Of a stretch of 64,000 nucleotides of DNA, positions 1 to 64,000 are shown piece by piece. The translations under genes were made by a program, and so were the position numbers. Under the pieces are notes generated by a model. It did no database searches and was not told the origin of the DNA. It was given only the letters and a program-made list of their open reading frames with translations. Numbering within the stretch: position 1 is the stretch's first letter; each line of letters begins with the position of its first letter. This DNA comes from Escherichia phage teqskov: the sequence record NC_054934.1, one strand, 5' to 3'.

Positions 1-2
1 AA

Positions 3-566
3 ATGTTCTATTTCAAGAACTTCGTATCCACATCGCTTAAACCAAATATCTTCGGTGAGCATGGTAAAAACTATATGGCTCTAGATGATTCCGGCGCAGT
101 ATTTTCTGGTGAAGGAGAAGGTTCCGTTGATGCAGAAGATTTGATGCATATGGGTAGTCATTCTACATATGCTAATGAAGATGCTGAAACTAGCATGGGT
201 ATGGTAATTAAAGGAGCTGAGCGAATCAAAGTTATCGTTCCAGGTCATTTATCAGGATTTCCATCAGAAGCTGAAGTTATTCTACCACGTGGAATTTTAC
301 TGAAGATTAATAAAGTGAGCACGTACATGATGAAAGAAACTGCTTATAATAAGTATCTAATCGAAGGCACAATCGTTCCTCCTTCTGAGCAATTAGAAGA
401 ATCAGTATATGATGGCGATCATTTGATGGAAACTGGTGAAGTTCGTCCAATGGCTGGATTTAATCAATTCCTTGTAGAAGAATCAAAAGAAGAGGAAAAC
501 GAAGTTTCTCAAATCTTGGCTTCTTTGGTTAACATCAACGGAATGTCTAAAAAGTTCAAGATGTAG
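3..566 (+). CDS. alt: C-terminal part of a larger protein continuing upstream of the window; probable ADP-ribosyltransferase Alt
   Basis: ORF open to window start; PSEAEVILPRG resembles the E-x-E catalytic motif of ADP-ribosyltransferases; position next to gene 54 matches T4 alt synteny. Confidence 0.45.
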   Translation: MFYFKNFVSTSLKPNIFGEHGKNYMALDDSGAVFSGEGEGSVDAEDLMHMGSHSTYANEDAETSMGMVIKGAERIKVIVPGHLSGFPSEAEVILPRGILLKINKVSTYMMKETAYNKYLIEGTIVPPSEQLEESVYDGDHLMETGEVRPMAGFNQFLVEESKEEENEVSQILASLVNINGMSKKFKM

Positions 567-59453: not shown

Positions 59454-59700
59454 GTATTATACTGCCCCTCGTCGTGTATCTGTCGCTCCTAAGAAAATTC
59501 AAAGTCTTGATGACTTCCAGGAAGTAGTCCGTAAAGCTTTCCAGGACTATGCACGTTATCTTAAAGAAGATTCACAGGACTGTCTCGAAGAAGATGAAAT
59601 TGCTTACTATGAGCAGCGTCTTGAACAGCTTAAAAACTTACATGAGGTTCGTGCAGAAGTTTCAAAGTCTATGAATAAATTGATTAGATTTAAAGAATAA
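59422..59700 (+). CDS. hypothetical protein (about 92 aa)
   Basis: ATG at 59422 with GAGG upstream; overlaps 3' end of previous ORF in another frame. Confidence 0.45.
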
Positions 59701-59702
59701 CT

Positions 59703-59732
59703 GTTTACTTTTCCTCTTGACTGTGGTATAAT
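59703..59732 (+). promoter_or_regulatory. T4-type early promoter (GTTTAC-N18-TATAAT) for regB
   Basis: -35 GTTTAC at 59703, -10 TATAAT at 59727, ATG at 59760. Confidence 0.7.
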
Positions 59733-59759
59733 TTTTCTATCAGTTAAGAGGAGAATAAC

Positions 59760-60221
59760 ATGACTATCAATACAGAAGTTTTTATCCGTCGAAATAAGCT
59801 TCGTCGTCACTTTGAGTCGGAGTTTCGTCAAATTAACAATGAGATTCGTGAGGCATCAAAAGCAGCAGGAGTCTCATCGTTTCATCTAAAATATTCTCAA
59901 CATCTTCTTGATCGTGCAATTCAACGGGAGATTGATGAGACATATGTTTTTGAATTATTCCATAAAATAAAAGACCATGTTTTAGAAGTTAATGAATTCC
60001 TGAGTATGCCTCCGCGTCCTGACATTGACGAGGATTTTATTGATGGGGTTGAATATCGTCCTGGACGTTTAGAAATCACAGATGGAAATCTTTGGCTTGG
60101 ATTTACGGTTTGTAAGCCTAATGAGAAGTTCAAAAACCCGTCACTTCAATGCAGGATGGCAATTATCAACAGTCGTCGTTTACCAGGAAAGGCTTCTAAA
60201 GCAGTAATTAAAACTCAATGA
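59760..60221 (+). CDS. regB: RegB endoribonuclease
   Basis: 153 aa; MTINTEVFIRRNKLRRHFESEF recognised; own early promoter. Confidence 0.8.
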   Translation: MTINTEVFIRRNKLRRHFESEFRQINNEIREASKAAGVSSFHLKYSQHLLDRAIQREIDETYVFELFHKIKDHVLEVNEFLSMPPRPDIDEDFIDGVEYRPGRLEITDGNLWLGFTVCKPNEKFKNPSLQCRMAIINSRRLPGKASKAVIKTQ

Positions 60222-60228
60222 GGTAAGC

Positions 60229-60774
60229 ATGAGAAAAGCACTACTCGCTGGTCTATTGGCCATTTCAATGATGGCACATAGCTCCGAGCATACTTTCAGT
60301 AATGTCCAACTCGATAACATGCGTTACGCGTATCAATTCGGGGAACAATTTTCTAAGGATGGAAAATATAAAACACACAAAAATATCCACAAGAGCGGAT
60401 TAGGTCATATAATGGCTGCTATTTTATGGCAAGAAAGCTCTGGCGGAGTTAATTTAAAATCTAAACCAAAGCATCACGCCTACGGAATGTTCCAAAATTA
60501 TTTGCCTACTATGCGAGCAAGAGTTAAGGAACTTGGTTATAATATGACCGATGCTGAAATAAAAAGAATGTTGAATAAACGGTCCAATTCAGCTTCCTGG
60601 GCGTACATTGAACTTTCTTATTGGTTAAATATACATAAGGGCGATATAAGAAAAGCAATATCCTCTTATAATTCGGGATGGAATGTTAAAGCAGGTTCTA
60701 AATATGCTTCTGAAGTCCTAGAAAAGGCTAATTACCTTAAAAATAATAAACTTTTGGAAATAGTAAATGACTAA
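60229..60774 (+). CDS. secreted lytic-transglycosylase-like protein (vs.1 position)
   Basis: N-terminal signal peptide; ILWQESSGG resembles the SLT catalytic-Glu motif. Confidence 0.5.
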   Translation: MRKALLAGLLAISMMAHSSEHTFSNVQLDNMRYAYQFGEQFSKDGKYKTHKNIHKSGLGHIMAAILWQESSGGVNLKSKPKHHAYGMFQNYLPTMRARVKELGYNMTDAEIKRMLNKRSNSASWAYIELSYWLNIHKGDIRKAISSYNSGWNVKAGSKYASEVLEKANYLKNNKLLEIVND

Positions 60775-61108
60775 AATTTTGGTTTTATGTATAGGATTAA
60801 TTTCATTTTCTGCGTTAGCAGATACATCATATACTGAAATTAGAGAGTATGTAAACCGTACTGCCGCGGATTATTGTGGGAAAAATAAAGCATGCCAAGC
60901 TGAATTTGCGCAGAAATTAATATATGCATATAAAGACGGAGAAAGAGATAAATCAAGCAGATACAAAAATGATACATTGTTAAAACGATATGCTAAAAAG
61001 TGGAATACCTTAGAATGTTCAGTTGCGGAGGAGAAAGATAAAGCCGCTTGTCATTCAATGGTTGACCGTTTAGTAGATTCTTATAATCGAGGATTGAGTA
61101 CTAGATGA
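60767..61108 (+). CDS. small secreted Cys-containing protein (vs position)
   Basis: signal peptide MTKILVLCIGLISFSALA; synteny between regB and tk. Confidence 0.45.
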   Translation: MTKILVLCIGLISFSALADTSYTEIREYVNRTAADYCGKNKACQAEFAQKLIYAYKDGERDKSSRYKNDTLLKRYAKKWNTLECSVAEEKDKAACHSMVDRLVDSYNRGLSTR

Positions 61109-61584
61109 TTGTAAAATATATCAAGGGCGATATTGTCGCCCTATTTCTTCAAGGTAATATTATTGCGCATGGGTGCAATTGCTTCCACACAATGGACTCT
61201 GGCGTAGCAGGTCAATTAGCAAGAGCCTATCCTAAAATTTTGGAAATAGATAAAACCACTACCGAGTACGGTTCTCGTGATAAATTAGGCGATATGTCTA
61301 TTGTTTTTAAACATAATCCTACAGGATTTGGTATATGCTATAACCTGTATACGCAATATGAACCGGGTCCTAATCTTGATTATGGTGCTTTAGTAAACTG
61401 CATGATAGAATTAAATCTACAGGCAGAAACCCTTTTGTTTAAACCAGTAATTTACATTCCACGCATAGGTTGCGGTATTGCTGGCGGCGATTGGGATAAG
61501 GTTTCTAAATTAATCGACATGTTTACTCCTGATATTGATTTAATAGTGGTGGATTATGAAAGTACATTACCCGCATCCGTTTGA
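61105..61584 (+). CDS. macro-domain-like protein (putative ADP-ribose binding/processing)
   Basis: KGDIV...IIAHGCNC...MDSGVAGQLA and IPRIGCGIAGGDW resemble macro-domain motifs (GDIT..VNAAN..GGGV.. and P-x-IS-TG-x-x-G). Confidence 0.5.
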   Translation: MIVKYIKGDIVALFLQGNIIAHGCNCFHTMDSGVAGQLARAYPKILEIDKTTTEYGSRDKLGDMSIVFKHNPTGFGICYNLYTQYEPGPNLDYGALVNCMIELNLQAETLLFKPVIYIPRIGCGIAGGDWDKVSKLIDMFTPDIDLIVVDYESTLPASV

Positions 61585-61768
61585 TCCTAAAAACAAAGTG
61601 GAAATTATTCGTCAATGGGAACGCATTTGCCGTACTAAATGTCCAATTAATAGTCCGCATGATGTAGATAAAGACTATATTGGAACATTCGTTGAATATA
61701 CCTTTATTGATAAGAAAGGTCGTAAACAGCACGTAGAAGAATATTGCTTAAAGGTTACATGGTTATGA
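61556..61768 (+). CDS. hypothetical protein (70 aa)
   Basis: ORF overlapping end of previous gene. Confidence 0.4.
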   Translation: MKVHYPHPFDPKNKVEIIRQWERICRTKCPINSPHDVDKDYIGTFVEYTFIDKKGRKQHVEEYCLKVTWL

Positions 61769-61971
61769 GCCAAACAAGTATTCTTAAAAATGCCCACTGC
61801 GAAAAGTGTGAATGGCCGGTTGTTTTTGCTTTATGTAATGATGAAATGGCTTGTGATTTCGATTATTGGTGCTATTGTTCTAATAAAGGATGCATCAATC
61901 ATAAAGGTGAAGGATTTTATTCAGGATTTTATCCTTATCCTGATTTCGTTAAAGAAGGTAAACCAAAATGA
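61765..61971 (+). CDS. small Cys-rich protein (about 68 aa; C-x-x-C plus additional Cys/His)
   Basis: ATG at 61765 overlapping previous stop; ORF-track start is TTG at 61744. Confidence 0.4.
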   Translation: MSQTSILKNAHCEKCEWPVVFALCNDEMACDFDYWCYCSNKGCINHKGEGFYSGFYPYPDFVKEGKPK

Positions 61972-62137
61972 ATAGTTTTGAGTTACAATATGAAGTGTTA
62001 CGTGAGCTTGATAATTTAATTGAACTCGCTGTCAATAAAGGTTTTGCCATTGGAATCGGTCAAAAAGATACTGGTCATTTAACCATGGAAATATTTAAGC
62101 AAAAGCGAATTATTTTAAAACTCCTGGAAATTAATAT

Positions 62138-62323
62138 ATGAGTCTGAGTAAAGAACAAAAAGATAAATTGTTTGAGCTTATCCATGAACTTCTAGATGAG
62201 CATACAGAAGCAAACACCTTTTATGATGAATACGGCCCGCTATCTCCCGAACAACAGGAAGAATTTGCTGATCGGTTTGATAAGAAAGAAAACGAATTAA
62301 TAGCTTATGTGAATACGCTTTAA
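62138..62323 (+). CDS. hypothetical acidic protein (61 aa)
   Basis: ATG ORF upstream of tk. Confidence 0.45.
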   Translation: MSLSKEQKDKLFELIHELLDEHTEANTFYDEYGPLSPEQQEEFADRFDKKENELIAYVNTL

Positions 62324-62332
62324 GAAGGTGAT

Positions 62333-62914
62333 ATGGCGAGTTTAATTTTTACTTATGCAGCAATGAATGCTGGAAAATCTGCTTCTCTTTTGACTGCTGC
62401 GCATAATTATAAAGAACGCGGAATGGGTGTATTAGTTCTTAAGCCTGCTATTGATACTCGCGATTCTGTCTGTGAAGTCGTTTCTCGCATTGGAATTAAA
62501 CAGGAAGCGAATATTATTACGGATGATATGGATATTTTTGAGTTCTATAAATGGGCTGAAGCACAAAAAGATATTCATTGCGTATTTGTAGATGAAGCCC
62601 AATTTTTAAAAACTGAACAAGTGCATCAATTGAGCCGAATTGTTGATACATATAATGTTCCTGTTATGGCTTATGGATTAAGGACTGATTTCGCTGGAAA
62701 ATTGTTTGAAGGTTCTAAAGAACTTTTAGCGATTGCAGATAAACTTATTGAACTAAAAGCAGTTTGTCATTGTGGTAAAAAAGCGATTATGACAGCTCGA
62801 TTAATGGAAGATGGAACACCAGTTAAAGAAGGTAATCAAATCTGTATTGGTGATGAAATTTATGTTTCTTTGTGTAGAAAACACTGGAATGAATTAACTA
62901 AAAAGCTCGGTTAG
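62333..62914 (+). CDS. tk: thymidine kinase
   Basis: 193 aa; P-loop AMNAGKS; C-terminal Cys cluster C-H-C-G ... C-R-K-H. Confidence 0.9.
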   Translation: MASLIFTYAAMNAGKSASLLTAAHNYKERGMGVLVLKPAIDTRDSVCEVVSRIGIKQEANIITDDMDIFEFYKWAEAQKDIHCVFVDEAQFLKTEQVHQLSRIVDTYNVPVMAYGLRTDFAGKLFEGSKELLAIADKLIELKAVCHCGKKAIMTARLMEDGTPVKEGNQICIGDEIYVSLCRKHWNELTKKLG

Positions 62915-62956
62915 TGCAAAAGTTATAAATAGGTTTATCTAACTAAAGGGGTATAT

Positions 62957-63169
62957 ATGCTACAATTAACTGAAAAGCAACTTCGCAATCTTACTGTTCT
63001 TCAATTAGATGAAATTCGTAGGGAAGTTGGAAATGTTATTTCAGCTTTGCGTCGAGAAGTATCACTCAACCAATCTCCGGCAGACTATACTAGATTGCGA
63101 AATTTTGAAAAATACCTTGATAAAGTTAAGGCCGTGCATCGGCATAAAGTAAATACAGGACAAAAATGA
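62957..63169 (+). CDS. hypothetical protein (70 aa, rI.-1 position)
   Basis: ORF between tk and rI. Confidence 0.5.
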
Positions 63170-63181
63170 TAGGAGGCCTTT

Positions 63182-63475
63182 ATGGCCTTAAAAGCAACGG
63201 CACTATTTGCCATGCTAGGATTGTCATTTGTTTTATCTCCATCGATTGAAGCGAATGTCGATCCTCATTTTGATAAATTTATGGAATCTGGTATTAGGCA
63301 CGTTTATATGCTTTTTGAAAATAAAAGCGTAGAATCGTCTGAACAATTCTATAGTTTTATGAGAACGACCTATAAAAATGACCCGTGCTCTTCTGATTTT
63401 GAATGTATAGAACGAGGCGCGGAGATGGCACAATCATACGCTAGAATTATGAACATTAAATTGGAGACTGAATGA
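63182..63475 (+). CDS. rI: lysis-inhibition antiholin RI
   Basis: 97 aa; N-terminal signal-anchor MALKATALFAMLGLSFVLSP; sequence recognised. Confidence 0.8.
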   Translation: MALKATALFAMLGLSFVLSPSIEANVDPHFDKFMESGIRHVYMLFENKSVESSEQFYSFMRTTYKNDPCSSDFECIERGAEMAQSYARIMNIKLETE

Positions 63476-63858
63476 AATTCAGCGACTTTTCACAAAGTGG
63501 AAAACCTTCAAAGGCAGATGAATACTTAGGTTTATTAATGGCTGCACAAGCTTATTTTCATTCTGCACATTTTGAAACTAAAAGTTATGCTAGACACAAA
63601 GCATACGATTTTATTTTCTCCGAGTTGCCAGATTTGATTGATAAATTTGGTGAGCAATATTTGGGGTATTCTGGTAGAAAATACACACCTTCAATTCCAG
63701 ATGCCAGTAAACTTCCTACCGACACAATTAAAATGATTGATCGCATACTAGACCAATCTAACAGCATTTATAAAGAAATGCCTCCAGCCATTCAAAGCAC
63801 GATAGATGATATTACTGGAATGTTTTACCAGAGTAAGTATCTTCTTTCCCTCGAATAA
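63472..63858 (+). CDS. hypothetical protein (128 aa, rI.1 position)
   Basis: ATGA overlap with rI; followed by terminator. Confidence 0.55.
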   Translation: MKFSDFSQSGKPSKADEYLGLLMAAQAYFHSAHFETKSYARHKAYDFIFSELPDLIDKFGEQYLGYSGRKYTPSIPDASKLPTDTIKMIDRILDQSNSIYKEMPPAIQSTIDDITGMFYQSKYLLSLE

Positions 63859-63895: not shown

Positions 63896-63925
63896 GTTTA
63901 CTTTCCGTTTGAGCTGTGGTACTAT
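63896..63925 (+). promoter_or_regulatory. T4-type early promoter (GTTTAC-N18-TACTAT)
   Basis: -35 GTTTAC at 63896, TG-n-TACTAT at 63920; ATG at 63954. Confidence 0.6.
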
Positions 63926-63953
63926 ACAACCATCGGATAAAGAGGAGAACATC

Positions 63954-64000
63954 ATGAAAATTGAAGCACTCAATCAAGAAGGAAATATCTACGTCATCAT
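63954..64000 (+). CDS. 5' end of an ORF running off the window (MKIEALNQEGNIYVI...)
   Basis: ATG with GAGGAG upstream, downstream of early promoter. Confidence 0.4.
   Translation, partial: MKIEALNQEGNIYVI

What the first reader, a model, noticed from the sequence alone, without database searches (positions are those of the whole stretch)
61105..61584. Macro-domain-like ORF in a phage that also encodes ADP-ribosyltransferase(s)
The 159-aa protein has KGDIV...IIAHGCNC...MDSGVAGQLA near the N-terminus and IPRIGCGIAGGDW near the C-terminus, resembling the ADP-ribose-binding and catalytic loops of macro domains. The T4 family uses ADP-ribosylation of host proteins (Alt, ModA, ModB), and ADP-ribose-derived molecules act in some bacterial defence systems. 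A macro domain could reverse or read such modifications.
Basis: inference. Interest (0 to 1): 0.5.

Follow-up and report, generated by a model that had tools for sequence, protein, structure and literature searches.

The report
Phage Tk.4/AdfM macrodomain, anti-DarT2 enzyme
This 159-residue gene is the T4-family gene tk.4, a real macrodomain whose T4 counterpart was recently shown to protect the phage from the bacterial DarTG2 defence (which ADP-ribosylates phage DNA), so the finding is correct but already known.

Summary
The ORF at 61105-61584 (+) is real and is a macrodomain. It hits Pfam Macro above the curated cut-off, the AlphaFold2 model has pLDDT 93, and the best fold matches are TARG1, Poa1p, BT1257, DarG and SCO6735. 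It is gene tk.4 of a Tequatrovirus, lying between vs and tk.3. The sequence is identical to the 'phosphatase / Macro domain protein' of Escherichia phage teqskov.

T4 tk.4 was named adfM in a 2025 preprint because a knockout makes T4 sensitive to DarTG2. The most likely function is therefore removal of ADP-ribose that host DarT2 puts on thymidines of phage DNA.

Three details go beyond the preprint as I read it:
- The family has an invariant Gln where DarG and TARG1 have the catalytic Lys. That matches SCO6735, a proven thymidine-ADP-ribose DNA hydrolase.
- This copy is only 57% identical to T4 Tk.4, yet sits in flanks 98-100% identical to T4, so it is a sharply bounded allele swap.
- It carries a private G31D change in the substrate-binding loop.

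Verdict: ordinary and already known.

The parts
61105..61584 (+). tk.4 / adfM homologue: 159-aa single-domain macrodomain protein (stop codon included)
   Evidence: ORF; Pfam Macro above the gathering cut-off; PHROG 335 E = 3e-70; AF2 pLDDT 93.4; macrodomain fold matches; exact sequence = Escherichia phage teqskov YP_010074652.1; 57% identical to T4 Tk.4
61089..61108 (+). Translation start region: Shine-Dalgarno-like GAGGA (61089-61093) and ATGA overlap of the vs stop codon with the tk.4 start codon
   Evidence: Read directly from the sequence and the ORF ends. Coupling with vs is an inference.
61168..61179 (+). Codons H22-G23-C24-N25 (AHGCNC motif). H22 corresponds to SCO6735 H24; N25 corresponds to SCO6735 N27, DarG N22 and PhiKZ gp104 N23.
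   Evidence: H22, G23 and N25 are invariant in 118 family representatives and C24 is in 114 of 118. Residue correspondence from the alignment with natural numbering. SCO6735 N27S nearly loses activity (PMC9411070); a conserved asparagine mutant of gp104 (the N23A construct) has reduced activity (PMC13309987).
61195..61197 (+). Codon 31, GAC (Asp): a private G31D substitution in the substrate-binding loop TM[G]SGVAG
   Evidence: The only difference from ECP2301 Tk.4. Gly in 104 of 118 representatives, Asp only here. The exact sequence is on one contig only.
61354..61356 (+). Codon Q84: Gln at the position of the catalytic Lys of TARG1 (K84) and DarG (K80); equals SCO6735 Q85
   Evidence: HMM alignment to TARG1; MAFFT alignments; Q in 118 of 118 representatives; SCO6735 Q85A is inactive (PMC9411070).
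61459..61494 (+). Codons P119-W130 (PRIGCGIAGGDW): phosphate-binding loop. G122 and G124 correspond to SCO6735 G126 and G128; A126 is at the position of TARG1 D125.
   Evidence: SCO6735 G128E loses much of its activity (PMC9411070).
61143..61555 (+). Body of the divergent tk.4 allele: 50-63% nucleotide identity to T4, inside flanks that are 95-100% identical
   Evidence: Pairwise alignment with T4 in 100-nt bins and base by base.
60767..61108 (+). Upstream gene vs (valyl-tRNA synthetase modifier), same strand; syntenic anchor
   Evidence: ORF; annotation of ECP2301 and T4.
61556..61768 (+). Downstream gene tk.3 (DUF7202), which overlaps the 3' end of tk.4 by 29 nt; syntenic anchor
   Evidence: ORF; Pfam DUF7202 E = 1e-37; annotation.
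1..566 (+). 3' end of an Alt-like ADP-ribosyltransferase gene, cut by the window edge. Context only; not shown to be functionally linked.
   Evidence: Local blastn against ECP2301, its annotation, and Pfam ADPrib_exo_Tox.

Best explanation
The gene is the tk.4 (adfM) orthologue of a T4-like phage. It encodes a free-standing, single-domain macrodomain enzyme made from the early-gene cluster regB-vs.1-vs-tk.4-tk.

When the host carries a DarTG2 toxin-antitoxin defence, infection releases DarT2, which puts ADP-ribose on N3 of thymidines in single-stranded phage DNA (TNTC motif) and blocks replication. Tk.4 most likely binds the ADP-ribose in its macrodomain cleft and hydrolyses the thymidine-ribose bond, restoring normal DNA. 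In effect the phage carries its own copy of the antitoxin activity.

Catalysis is probably of the SCO6735 type. The invariant Gln84, held by Asn25, positions the distal ribose, and a water molecule does the chemistry. This differs from the Lys-dependent mechanism of DarG and TARG1.

Shown here: macrodomain identity, orthology and synteny with T4 tk.4, and conservation of the SCO6735-type residues. Taken from papers: the T4 knockout phenotype and the SCO6735 biochemistry. Inferred: that this 57%-identical allele has the same target and that it acts by hydrolysis.
For: Identity and orthology:
- Macrodomain by HMM, profile and predicted fold.
- Same locus as T4 tk.4, between vs and tk.3, in flanks 98-100% identical to T4. 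PHROG 335 E = 3e-70. 57% identity to T4 Tk.4 over 97% of the length.

Function of the T4 orthologue:
- T4 tk.4 was the only significant hit of a transposon screen on a DarTG2 host. A clean knockout became DarTG2-sensitive, and the gene was named adfM (10.1101/2025.11.20.689424).
- Independently, T4 lacking both adfA and adfN stays DarTG2-resistant, which predicted an unknown anti-DarTG2 factor (PMC11257639).

Catalytic residues:
- Q84, N25, H22, G122 and G124 are invariant in 117-118 of 118 family representatives.
- They align with SCO6735 Q85, N27, H24, G126 and G128. Q85A is inactive, N27S nearly so, and G128E loses much of its activity; H24Y is inactive but misfolded. SCO6735 cleaves thymidine-linked ADP-ribose from DNA and rescues cells from DarT (PMC9411070).
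- BT1257, 54% identical to SCO6735, is the best sequence match in the PDB.
- The phosphate-binding loop of this allele (GCGIAGGDW) is closer to the family consensus and to SCO6735 (GCGLAGGTW) than the loop of the tested T4 allele (GAGIGKGNW).

Precedent:
- Another phage macrodomain, PhiKZ gp104, removes DarT2-made ADP-ribose from DNA in vitro (PMC13309987).
Against: - No biochemistry exists for any Tk.4 protein. The T4 evidence is genetic and comes from a preprint, which itself only says that enzymatic removal 'seems likely'.
- This allele is only 57% identical to the tested one, so target specificity could differ.
- It lacks the DarG/TARG1 catalytic Lys and TARG1 Asp125. It scores only 22 bits on the DarG models (NCBIfam cut-off 250; PADLOC gives PhiKZ gp104 133 bits).
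- It lacks the five-residue-longer mobile loop and the K34 and K89 residues that were proposed to help SCO6735 bind DNA.
- The private G31D change puts a negative charge in the substrate-binding loop and might weaken this particular copy.
- No DarT gene can be examined here, because the host is unknown.
Confidence: 0.65

Rival explanations
1. It is a small-molecule enzyme, as the database name 'phosphatase' implies. It would act as an ADP-ribose-1''-phosphate phosphatase (Poa1p-like) or O-acetyl-ADP-ribose deacetylase, tidying NAD-derived metabolites during infection.
For: - PHROG 335 and RefSeq call it 'phosphatase'; RB69 tk.4 is annotated 'contains A1pp phosphatase motif'.
- Poa1p is among the best sequence and fold matches.
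- H22 aligns with Poa1p H23, a residue that was mutated in the solved Poa1p structures.
Against: - The name is inherited from the domain family and has not been tested.
- I know of no source of ADP-ribose-1''-phosphate in T4 infection; T4 tRNA repair leaves no 2'-phosphate (my own knowledge).
- The NCBIfam O-acetyl-ADP-ribose deacetylase model gives 13.6 bits against a cut-off of 291.
- This reading does not explain the DarTG2-specific phenotype of the T4 knockout.
Confidence: 0.08
2. It reverses or reads the phage's own protein ADP-ribosylation (Alt, ModA, ModB), tuning or limiting those modifications.
For: The phage does encode Alt-like transferases: a fragment at window 1-566 and two genes in the near-identical ECP2301. 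Macrodomains of this class can remove ADP-ribose from proteins; SCO6735 and TARG1 act on Glu/Asp-linked PARP1.
Against: - Alt and the Mod enzymes modify arginine. As far as I know, arginine-linked ADP-ribose is removed by ARH-type hydrolases, not by macrodomains.
- tk.4 is not adjacent to alt or mod.
- tk.4 homologues occur in many phage groups (2,749 records, many outside the T4 family). I did not check whether those phages encode Alt/Mod homologues.
- tk.4 was reported as a hit only in the presence of DarTG2 (reduced read counts specifically with that system), not as generally required.
Confidence: 0.04
3. It blocks DarT2 mainly by binding it (or by shielding its product) rather than by hydrolysis. 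It would be a stoichiometric inhibitor that happens to have a macrodomain fold.
For: Catalytically dead SCO6735 Q85A, DarG K80A and TARG1 K84A all still inhibit DarT in vitro, and SCO6735 does so most strongly (PMC9411070). Tk.4 lacks the Lys used by DarG.
Against: The whole set of residues needed for SCO6735 hydrolysis is invariant across 118 diverse family representatives, which argues for selection on catalysis. The protein has no extra domain comparable to the DarT-binding C-terminal domain of DarG: it is 159 aa and the macrodomain fold spans residues 2-151.
Confidence: 0.08
4. Its real or additional substrate is ADP-ribosylated RNA (uracil-linked), or the product of a host transferase other than DarT2. 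The two tk.4 allele classes would then differ in target.
For: TARG1, DarG and SCO6735 also remove uracil-linked ADP-ribose from RNA (PMC13036486). tk.4 exists as at least two sharply swapped allele classes, 57% identical, each in hundreds of phages.
Against: No bacterial uracil-ADP-ribosylating defence acting on T4-like phages is known to me. The active-site residues are the same in both alleles. Cassette-like allele exchange is also common for T4 accessory genes with no known arms-race role.
Confidence: 0.1

Closest known systems
T4 Tk.4 = AdfM (anti-DarT factor Macrodomain), HIDEN-SEQ preprint 10.1101/2025.11.20.689424
   Same: Same gene slot (vs - tk.4 - tk.3), same length class (159 vs 155 aa), same PHROG, and the same invariant residues (H22, N25, Q84, G122, G124, W130).
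   Different: Only 57% amino-acid identity and 50-63% nucleotide identity, inside otherwise near-identical DNA. The phosphate-binding loop is GCGIAGGDW here and GAGIGKGNW in T4. This allele has not been tested.
Streptomyces coelicolor SCO6735 (PDB 5E3B) and Bacteroides BT1257 (2FG1/2AFC): Gln-type ALC1-like macrodomains
   Same: Gln at the catalytic position, plus the Asn that holds it and the Gly-rich phosphate loop. BT1257 is the best PDB sequence match. SCO6735 is a proven thymidine-ADP-ribose DNA hydrolase that protects against DarT.
   Different: About 25% identity. The T4-family proteins lack the five-residue-longer mobile loop and K34/K89. SCO6735 is a cellular, DNA-damage-regulated protein rather than a phage counter-defence gene.
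DarG antitoxin macrodomain (M. tuberculosis 5M3I, T. aquaticus 5M31/5M3E)
   Same: Same fold and class, the same conserved Asn, and the same presumed substrate (DarT2-modified thymidine).
   Different: DarG uses Lys80 (FPTK motif), has a C-terminal DarT-binding domain, and is encoded next to darT. Tk.4 has Gln, no second domain and no darT neighbour. DarG models give only 22 bits.
PhiKZ gp104, also named AdfM (Cell Rep 2026, PMC13309987)
   Same: A phage-encoded free-standing macrodomain that counters DarTG2. Removal of ADP-ribose from DNA has been shown in vitro.
   Different: gp104 is a true DarG-clade macrodomain (FPTK Lys; PADLOC DarG 133 bits against 22 bits here) and is imported into the phage nucleus. 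The shared name covers two different macrodomain subfamilies.
Human TARG1/OARD1 (4J5R/4J5S)
   Same: Best Foldseek match (E = 6.5e-10, TM 0.73-0.84). Shares the PRIGCG...W loop and the His of the AH motif.
   Different: The TARG1 catalytic dyad K84/D125 is Q84/A126 here.
Yeast Poa1p, ADP-ribose-1''-phosphate phosphatase (6LFQ-6LFU)
   Same: Strong N-terminal similarity (residues 3-79), including the H(S/G)CNC motif. It is the source of the 'phosphatase' label.
   Different: Poa1p acts on a small molecule from tRNA splicing. The C-terminal half is much less similar. There is no evidence that Tk.4 is a phosphatase.

Membership tests
Macro domain (Pfam PF01661) | Score at or above the curated gathering threshold over most of the model | tested here: met
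   30.8 bits against 22, model positions 2-117 of 118
Macro domain (Pfam PF01661) | Macrodomain fold: mixed beta-sheet flanked by helices, matching solved macrodomains | tested here: met
   AF2 pLDDT 93.4 with alternating strands and helices. The listed matches are macrodomains or designed proteins with the same fold, all at probability 1.00.
Macro domain (Pfam PF01661) | Binds ADP-ribose | not testable with these tools
   Needs a binding assay or a co-crystal. The Gly-rich loops that hold the diphosphate are conserved.
ALC1-like / TARG1-like macrodomain class | Closest solved relatives are TARG1, DarG, SCO6735 and BT1257 rather than MacroD, PARG or viral Mac1 | tested here: met
   Profile E-values of 4e-19 to 1e-11 for that group, against about 5e-3 for alphavirus and coronavirus macrodomains. 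Foldseek gives the same ranking.
T4 Tk.4 / AdfM orthologous group | Encoded between vs and tk.3 in the regB-tk early region of a T4-like phage | tested here: met
T4 Tk.4 / AdfM orthologous group | Full-length sequence similarity to T4 Tk.4 | tested here: met
   57% identity over 97% of the query, tblastn E = 3e-56; same PHROG 335
T4 Tk.4 / AdfM orthologous group | Needed for growth on a DarTG2-carrying host | not testable with these tools
   Shown only for the T4 allele
SCO6735/BT1257 Gln-type subclass | Gln in place of the catalytic Lys, held by a conserved Asn | tested here: met
   Q84 = Q85 and N25 = N27; both are invariant in 118 of 118 representatives
SCO6735/BT1257 Gln-type subclass | Mobile loop five residues longer than in DarG and TARG1 | tested here: not met
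   The window and T4 proteins have the short loop (QYEPGPNLDY). Some more distant family members carry a 3-4 residue insertion there.
SCO6735/BT1257 Gln-type subclass | Hydrolyses thymidine-linked ADP-ribose on single-stranded DNA | not testable with these tools
   Needs a gel-shift assay on a DarT2-modified oligonucleotide
DarG antitoxin (NCBIfam NF048014, PADLOC DarG) | Model score at the family cut-off | tested here: not met
   22.4 bits against a cut-off of 250. PADLOC DarG gives 22 bits here and 133 bits for PhiKZ gp104.
DarG antitoxin (NCBIfam NF048014, PADLOC DarG) | Catalytic Lys80 (FPTK motif) | tested here: not met
   Gln84 at that column
DarG antitoxin (NCBIfam NF048014, PADLOC DarG) | C-terminal DarT-binding domain and an adjacent darT gene | tested here: not met
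   The protein is 159 aa and only positions 2-145 of the roughly 330-position DarG models are matched. The neighbouring genes are vs and tk.3.
TARG1 | Lys84/Asp125 catalytic dyad | tested here: not met
   Q84 and A126 at those columns
Poa1p-like ADP-ribose-1''-phosphate phosphatase | Residues equivalent to Poa1p H23 and S30 (the positions mutated in 6LFS and 6LFT) | tested here: inconclusive
   H22 aligns with H23 and is invariant. The S30 position is T29 here and is variable in the family (T in 70 of 118).
Poa1p-like ADP-ribose-1''-phosphate phosphatase | Phosphatase activity on ADP-ribose-1''-phosphate | not testable with these tools
   Needs an enzyme assay

The most novel reading that the evidence does not exclude
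tk.4 may be an exchangeable counter-defence cassette. The two or more allele classes (57% identical, swapped precisely between codon 14 and the stop codon) would have different specificities. For example, they could target different DarT2 variants, or thymidine-ADP-ribose on DNA versus uracil-ADP-ribose on RNA. All of them would work by a Gln-based, Lys-independent mechanism that phages acquired from the SCO6735/BT1257 lineage rather than from the DarG antitoxin.
Probability: 0.15. Interest if true: 0.5.

Novelty: already known. Interest (0 to 1): 0.2.

Why it matters
It shows how T4-like phages escape a DNA-ADP-ribosylating toxin-antitoxin defence by carrying their own eraser enzyme. That is already in the literature for T4 (AdfM) and for PhiKZ.

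What this window adds is small:
- The widespread database name 'phosphatase' is probably misleading.
- The T4-family enzyme belongs to the Gln-type (SCO6735-like) branch, not the DarG branch, so the name AdfM now covers two mechanistically different macrodomains.
- The gene exists as sharply swapped alleles, which could be used to test whether DarT2 variants and phage erasers co-evolve.

Tried and rejected
- **NCBIfam and PADLOC.** Only weak DarG hits (22 bits) and a 13.6-bit O-acetyl-ADP-ribose deacetylase hit, all far below the cut-offs. They are not usable for assigning a family.
- **Promoter and terminator scan, 59500-63000.** Fewer promoter-like sites than in shuffles (9 against 13.9). 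The only well-placed one (59704-59732) lies upstream of regB. Nothing is specific to tk.4.
- **GC-rich hairpin at 61124-61142.** It lies inside the 5' end of tk.4 at the left junction of the allele swap. Folding of the 81-nt stretch around it (61085-61165) is not unusual (z = -1.58, 13 of 200 shuffles fold as well), so I treat it as coincidence or at most a junction marker.
- **Genomic context of a bacterial homologue** (Pelagimonas phthalicica, P0096). It sits among housekeeping genes with no ADP-ribosyltransferase nearby, so it gives no functional clue.
- **RB69.** I checked whether RB69, reported as DarTG2-resistant, carries the window-type allele, which would have supported this allele indirectly. 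It does not: RB69 Tk.4 is 59% identical and of the T4 type.
- **First MAFFT run with seven sequences.** It misaligned BT1257 around the Gln. This was corrected by the HMM alignment and by a larger alignment whose numbering reproduces every published residue number.
- **Not used.** I did not use the representative-library search, the metagenome or genome scans, or a second structure job. The identity of the gene was already settled.
Full report
**1. The observation**

The window has an ATG ORF at 61105..61584 on the + strand. The start codon overlaps the stop codon of the preceding ORF (ATGA), and a GAGGA lies 11 nt upstream. The next ORF starts 29 nt before the stop. The gene is therefore tightly packed in a same-strand array.

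**2. Is it a macrodomain?**

Yes, by three independent tests.
- Pfam Macro (PF01661) scores 30.8 bits against a gathering cut-off of 22, covering practically the whole model.
- A profile of 50 homologues (alignment A1) hits solved macrodomains: BT1257 4e-19, TARG1 1.6e-16, SCO6735 7.8e-16, Poa1p 8.5e-15 and M. tuberculosis DarG 1.3e-11. Alphavirus and coronavirus macrodomains reach only about 5e-3 to 1e-2.
- The AlphaFold2 model built on A1 has mean pLDDT 93.4 and pTM 0.88. Its Foldseek matches in the PDB are led by TARG1 (E = 6.5e-10, TM 0.73-0.84), then Poa1p, BT1257, T. aquaticus and M. tuberculosis DarG, and SCO6735.

**3. What gene it is**

- The 2.75 kb around the ORF is 98-99% identical to many Tequatrovirus genomes; the best is Escherichia phage ECP2301 at 99.1%.
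- The annotated order there and in T4 is regB, vs.1, vs, this gene, tk.3 and several small ORFs, tk, rI.1, rI. Pfam on the window's own neighbours agrees: RegB, an SLT-domain protein, DUF7202, thymidine kinase.
- The gene is therefore tk.4. Phage records name it 'Tk.4', 'phosphatase', 'Poa1p-like', 'Appr-1-p processing domain protein' or 'macro domain protein'. The RB69 record says 'contains A1pp phosphatase motif'.
- The exact 159-aa sequence is in public databases as 'phosphatase' of Escherichia phage teqskov (YP_010074652.1) and as 'Macro domain protein' in UniRef.
- The macrodomain nature of this gene is thus already recorded in public annotation.

**4. What is known about its function**

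- A 2025 preprint on transposon mapping of phage genes (HIDEN-SEQ, 10.1101/2025.11.20.689424) infected a DarTG2-expressing E. coli with a T4 insertion library. It found one significant hit, tk.4.
- A clean tk.4 knockout became sensitive to DarTG2. The authors named the gene adfM (anti-DarT factor Macrodomain) and proposed, without biochemistry, that it removes ADP-ribose from DNA.
- This fills a gap predicted earlier. T4 lacking both AdfA and AdfN, the anti-DarTG1 factors, is still DarTG2-resistant (PMC11257639).
- Independently, a Cell Reports 2026 paper gave the same name, AdfM, to PhiKZ gp104. It showed in vitro that gp104 removes DarT2-made ADP-ribose from a TNTC oligonucleotide (PMC13309987).

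**5. Which kind of macrodomain**

I took real sequences of the solved proteins from the PDB search outputs and gp104 from the paper's methods. I aligned them with the window protein, T4 Tk.4 and twelve family members. That alignment reproduces every published residue number: TARG1 K84 and D125, DarG K80, SCO6735 H24, V25, N27, K34, Q85, G87, K89, G126 and G128, and gp104 N23. I therefore trust the correspondences below.

| Window residue | Equivalent in other proteins |
|---|---|
| Gln84 | Catalytic Lys of TARG1, DarG and gp104; Gln85 of SCO6735 and Gln of BT1257 |
| Asn25 | SCO6735 N27, DarG N22, gp104 N23 |
| His22 | SCO6735 H24 |
| Gly122, Gly124 | SCO6735 G126, G128 |
| Ala126 | TARG1 D125 |

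- In 118 cluster representatives of the Tk.4 family, H22, N25 and Q84 are invariant in all 118 and G122 and G124 in 117.
- SCO6735 was shown to cleave thymidine-linked ADP-ribose from DNA faster than DarG or TARG1, and to rescue cells from DarT. Q85A is inactive, N27S nearly so, and G128E loses much of its activity. Its authors propose a water-mediated mechanism in which Gln positions the distal ribose (PMC9411070).
- The T4-family proteins therefore carry the SCO6735-type active site, not the DarG-type. In line with this, the PADLOC DarG model gives 133 bits to gp104, 36 bits to T4 Tk.4 and 22 bits to the window protein. The NCBIfam DarG model gives 22 bits against a cut-off of 250.
- Tk.4 differs from SCO6735 and BT1257 in lacking their five-residue-longer 'mobile loop' and the basic residues K34 and K89.
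- In what I read of the HIDEN-SEQ preprint (searched passages only), Tk.4 is compared only with DarG. I did not find the Gln/Lys difference mentioned there.

**6. How it most likely works**

- Host DarT2 is released on infection. It ADP-ribosylates thymidines in single-stranded phage DNA and stalls replication.
- Tk.4 is made from the early region together with regB, vs and tk. It binds the ADP-ribose and hydrolyses the base-ribose bond through the Gln84/Asn25 arrangement.
- Macrodomain identity, orthology and the conserved residues are shown here. The T4 phenotype and the SCO6735 chemistry come from papers.
- Transfer of that function to this allele, and hydrolysis rather than binding as the mechanism, are inferences. 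I put 0.65 on the whole chain.

**7. Rival explanations**

- **Small-molecule phosphatase or deacetylase.** This rests on an inherited name only and does not explain the DarTG2 phenotype.
The phage does encode Alt-like transferases: window 3-563 hits ADPrib_exo_Tox, and ECP2301 has two Alt-like genes there. However, those enzymes modify arginine. To my knowledge macrodomains do not cleave arginine-linked ADP-ribose. The gene is also widespread in phages outside the T4 family; I did not check those phages for Alt/Mod homologues.
- **Non-catalytic inhibition of DarT2.** This is conceivable, because dead SCO6735, DarG and TARG1 mutants still inhibit DarT. Invariance of the catalytic set argues against it being the main mode.
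- **An RNA (uracil-ADP-ribose) substrate, or a different substrate for different alleles.** This cannot be excluded, since TARG1, DarG and SCO6735 all act on uracil-ADP-ribose RNA (PMC13036486).

**8. The allele**

- The window protein is only 57% identical to T4 Tk.4 but 92.5% identical to the JS98 protein.
- At the DNA level the window matches T4 at 98-100% through regB, vs.1 and vs, and is identical to T4 from well upstream through codon 13 of tk.4 (base 61142).
- Identity then falls to 50-63% up to the end of the gene. It recovers to 95% in tk.3 and to 96-100% from tk onward.
- The tk.4 body is therefore a sharply bounded replacement.
- In the phage collection, 311 records carry the window-type allele (at least 90% identity). 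224 carry the T4 type at 90% or more, and 159 more lie at 80-90%.
- The phosphate loop of the window allele is closer to the family consensus and to SCO6735 than that of T4. This makes loss of function by divergence unlikely.

**9. A private substitution**

- The window protein differs from the ECP2301 protein by one residue, G31D (codon GAC at 61195-61197).
- The position lies in the substrate-binding loop, next to the position of SCO6735 K34. It is Gly in 104 of 118 representatives and Asp only here.
- The exact sequence is recorded on a single contig.
- The position is not invariant: A, N, K and R occur, and one T4-type cluster has Lys. I cannot say whether G31D weakens the enzyme.

**10. 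Verdict**

The functional guess is partly right.
- The gene is a known one whose orthologue already has an assigned counter-defence role.
- The Gln-type active site, the allele cassette and G31D are modest additions, not a new kind of system.
- Interest is low (0.2). Novelty: already known.

Noticed in passing
window 61195-61197 (codon 31 of tk.4): A private G31D substitution in the substrate-binding loop. It is the only difference from the ECP2301 protein, Asp occurs at this position in none of the other 117 family representatives, and the exact sequence is recorded on one contig only (phage teqskov). It might weaken DNA binding or be neutral.
   Followed up: partly
window 61143-61555, compared with L002 (T4): The tk.4 body is a sharply bounded allele replacement: 50-63% nucleotide identity to T4 inside flanks of 95-100%. 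The left junction is at codon 14 and the right junction at the tk.3 start. Both allele classes are common (311 and 224 or more phage records).
   Followed up: yes
window 61124-61142: A GC-rich inverted repeat, AGGGCGATATTGTCGCCCT, followed by a T-rich tail. It lies inside the 5' end of tk.4, is identical in T4, and ends exactly where the allele divergence starts. Folding energy of the 81-nt stretch around it (61085-61165) is not unusual (z = -1.58).
   Followed up: partly
window 61770-62330: The tk.2/tk.1 region between tk.3 and tk is not alignable with T4 (18-45% identity with many gaps). Here it holds a Phage_zn_bind ORF (61744-61971), a 57-aa ORF with no Pfam hit (61968-62141) and a DUF7438 ORF (62138-62323). 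This is a second variable cassette next to tk.4.
   Followed up: partly
window 1-566; L003 18190-22344 (ECP2301): The window starts inside an Alt-like ADP-ribosyltransferase gene (C-terminal 187 aa; Pfam ADPrib_exo_Tox). The near-identical phage ECP2301 has two tandem Alt-like genes at this place.
   Followed up: partly
literature: T4 Tk.4 and PhiKZ gp104: Two different phage macrodomains were independently named AdfM. PhiKZ gp104 is a DarG-clade enzyme with the FPTK Lys (PADLOC DarG 133 bits). T4 Tk.4 is a Gln-type enzyme like SCO6735 (36 bits; the window protein scores 22 bits). The shared name hides a likely mechanistic difference.
   Followed up: yes
window 60229-60774 (vs.1): The 181-aa protein upstream of vs has an N-terminal signal-like sequence and a Pfam SLT (lytic transglycosylase) hit at 25.1 bits, just above the cut-off of 21.3. 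Phage records mostly call it hypothetical.
   Followed up: no
window 63901-64000, compared with L002: Identity to T4 drops sharply in the last 100 bases of the window (28%, with a large gap), just after the rI.-1-like ORF 63472-63858. T4 and this phage differ in content there, near the mobD region.
   Followed up: no
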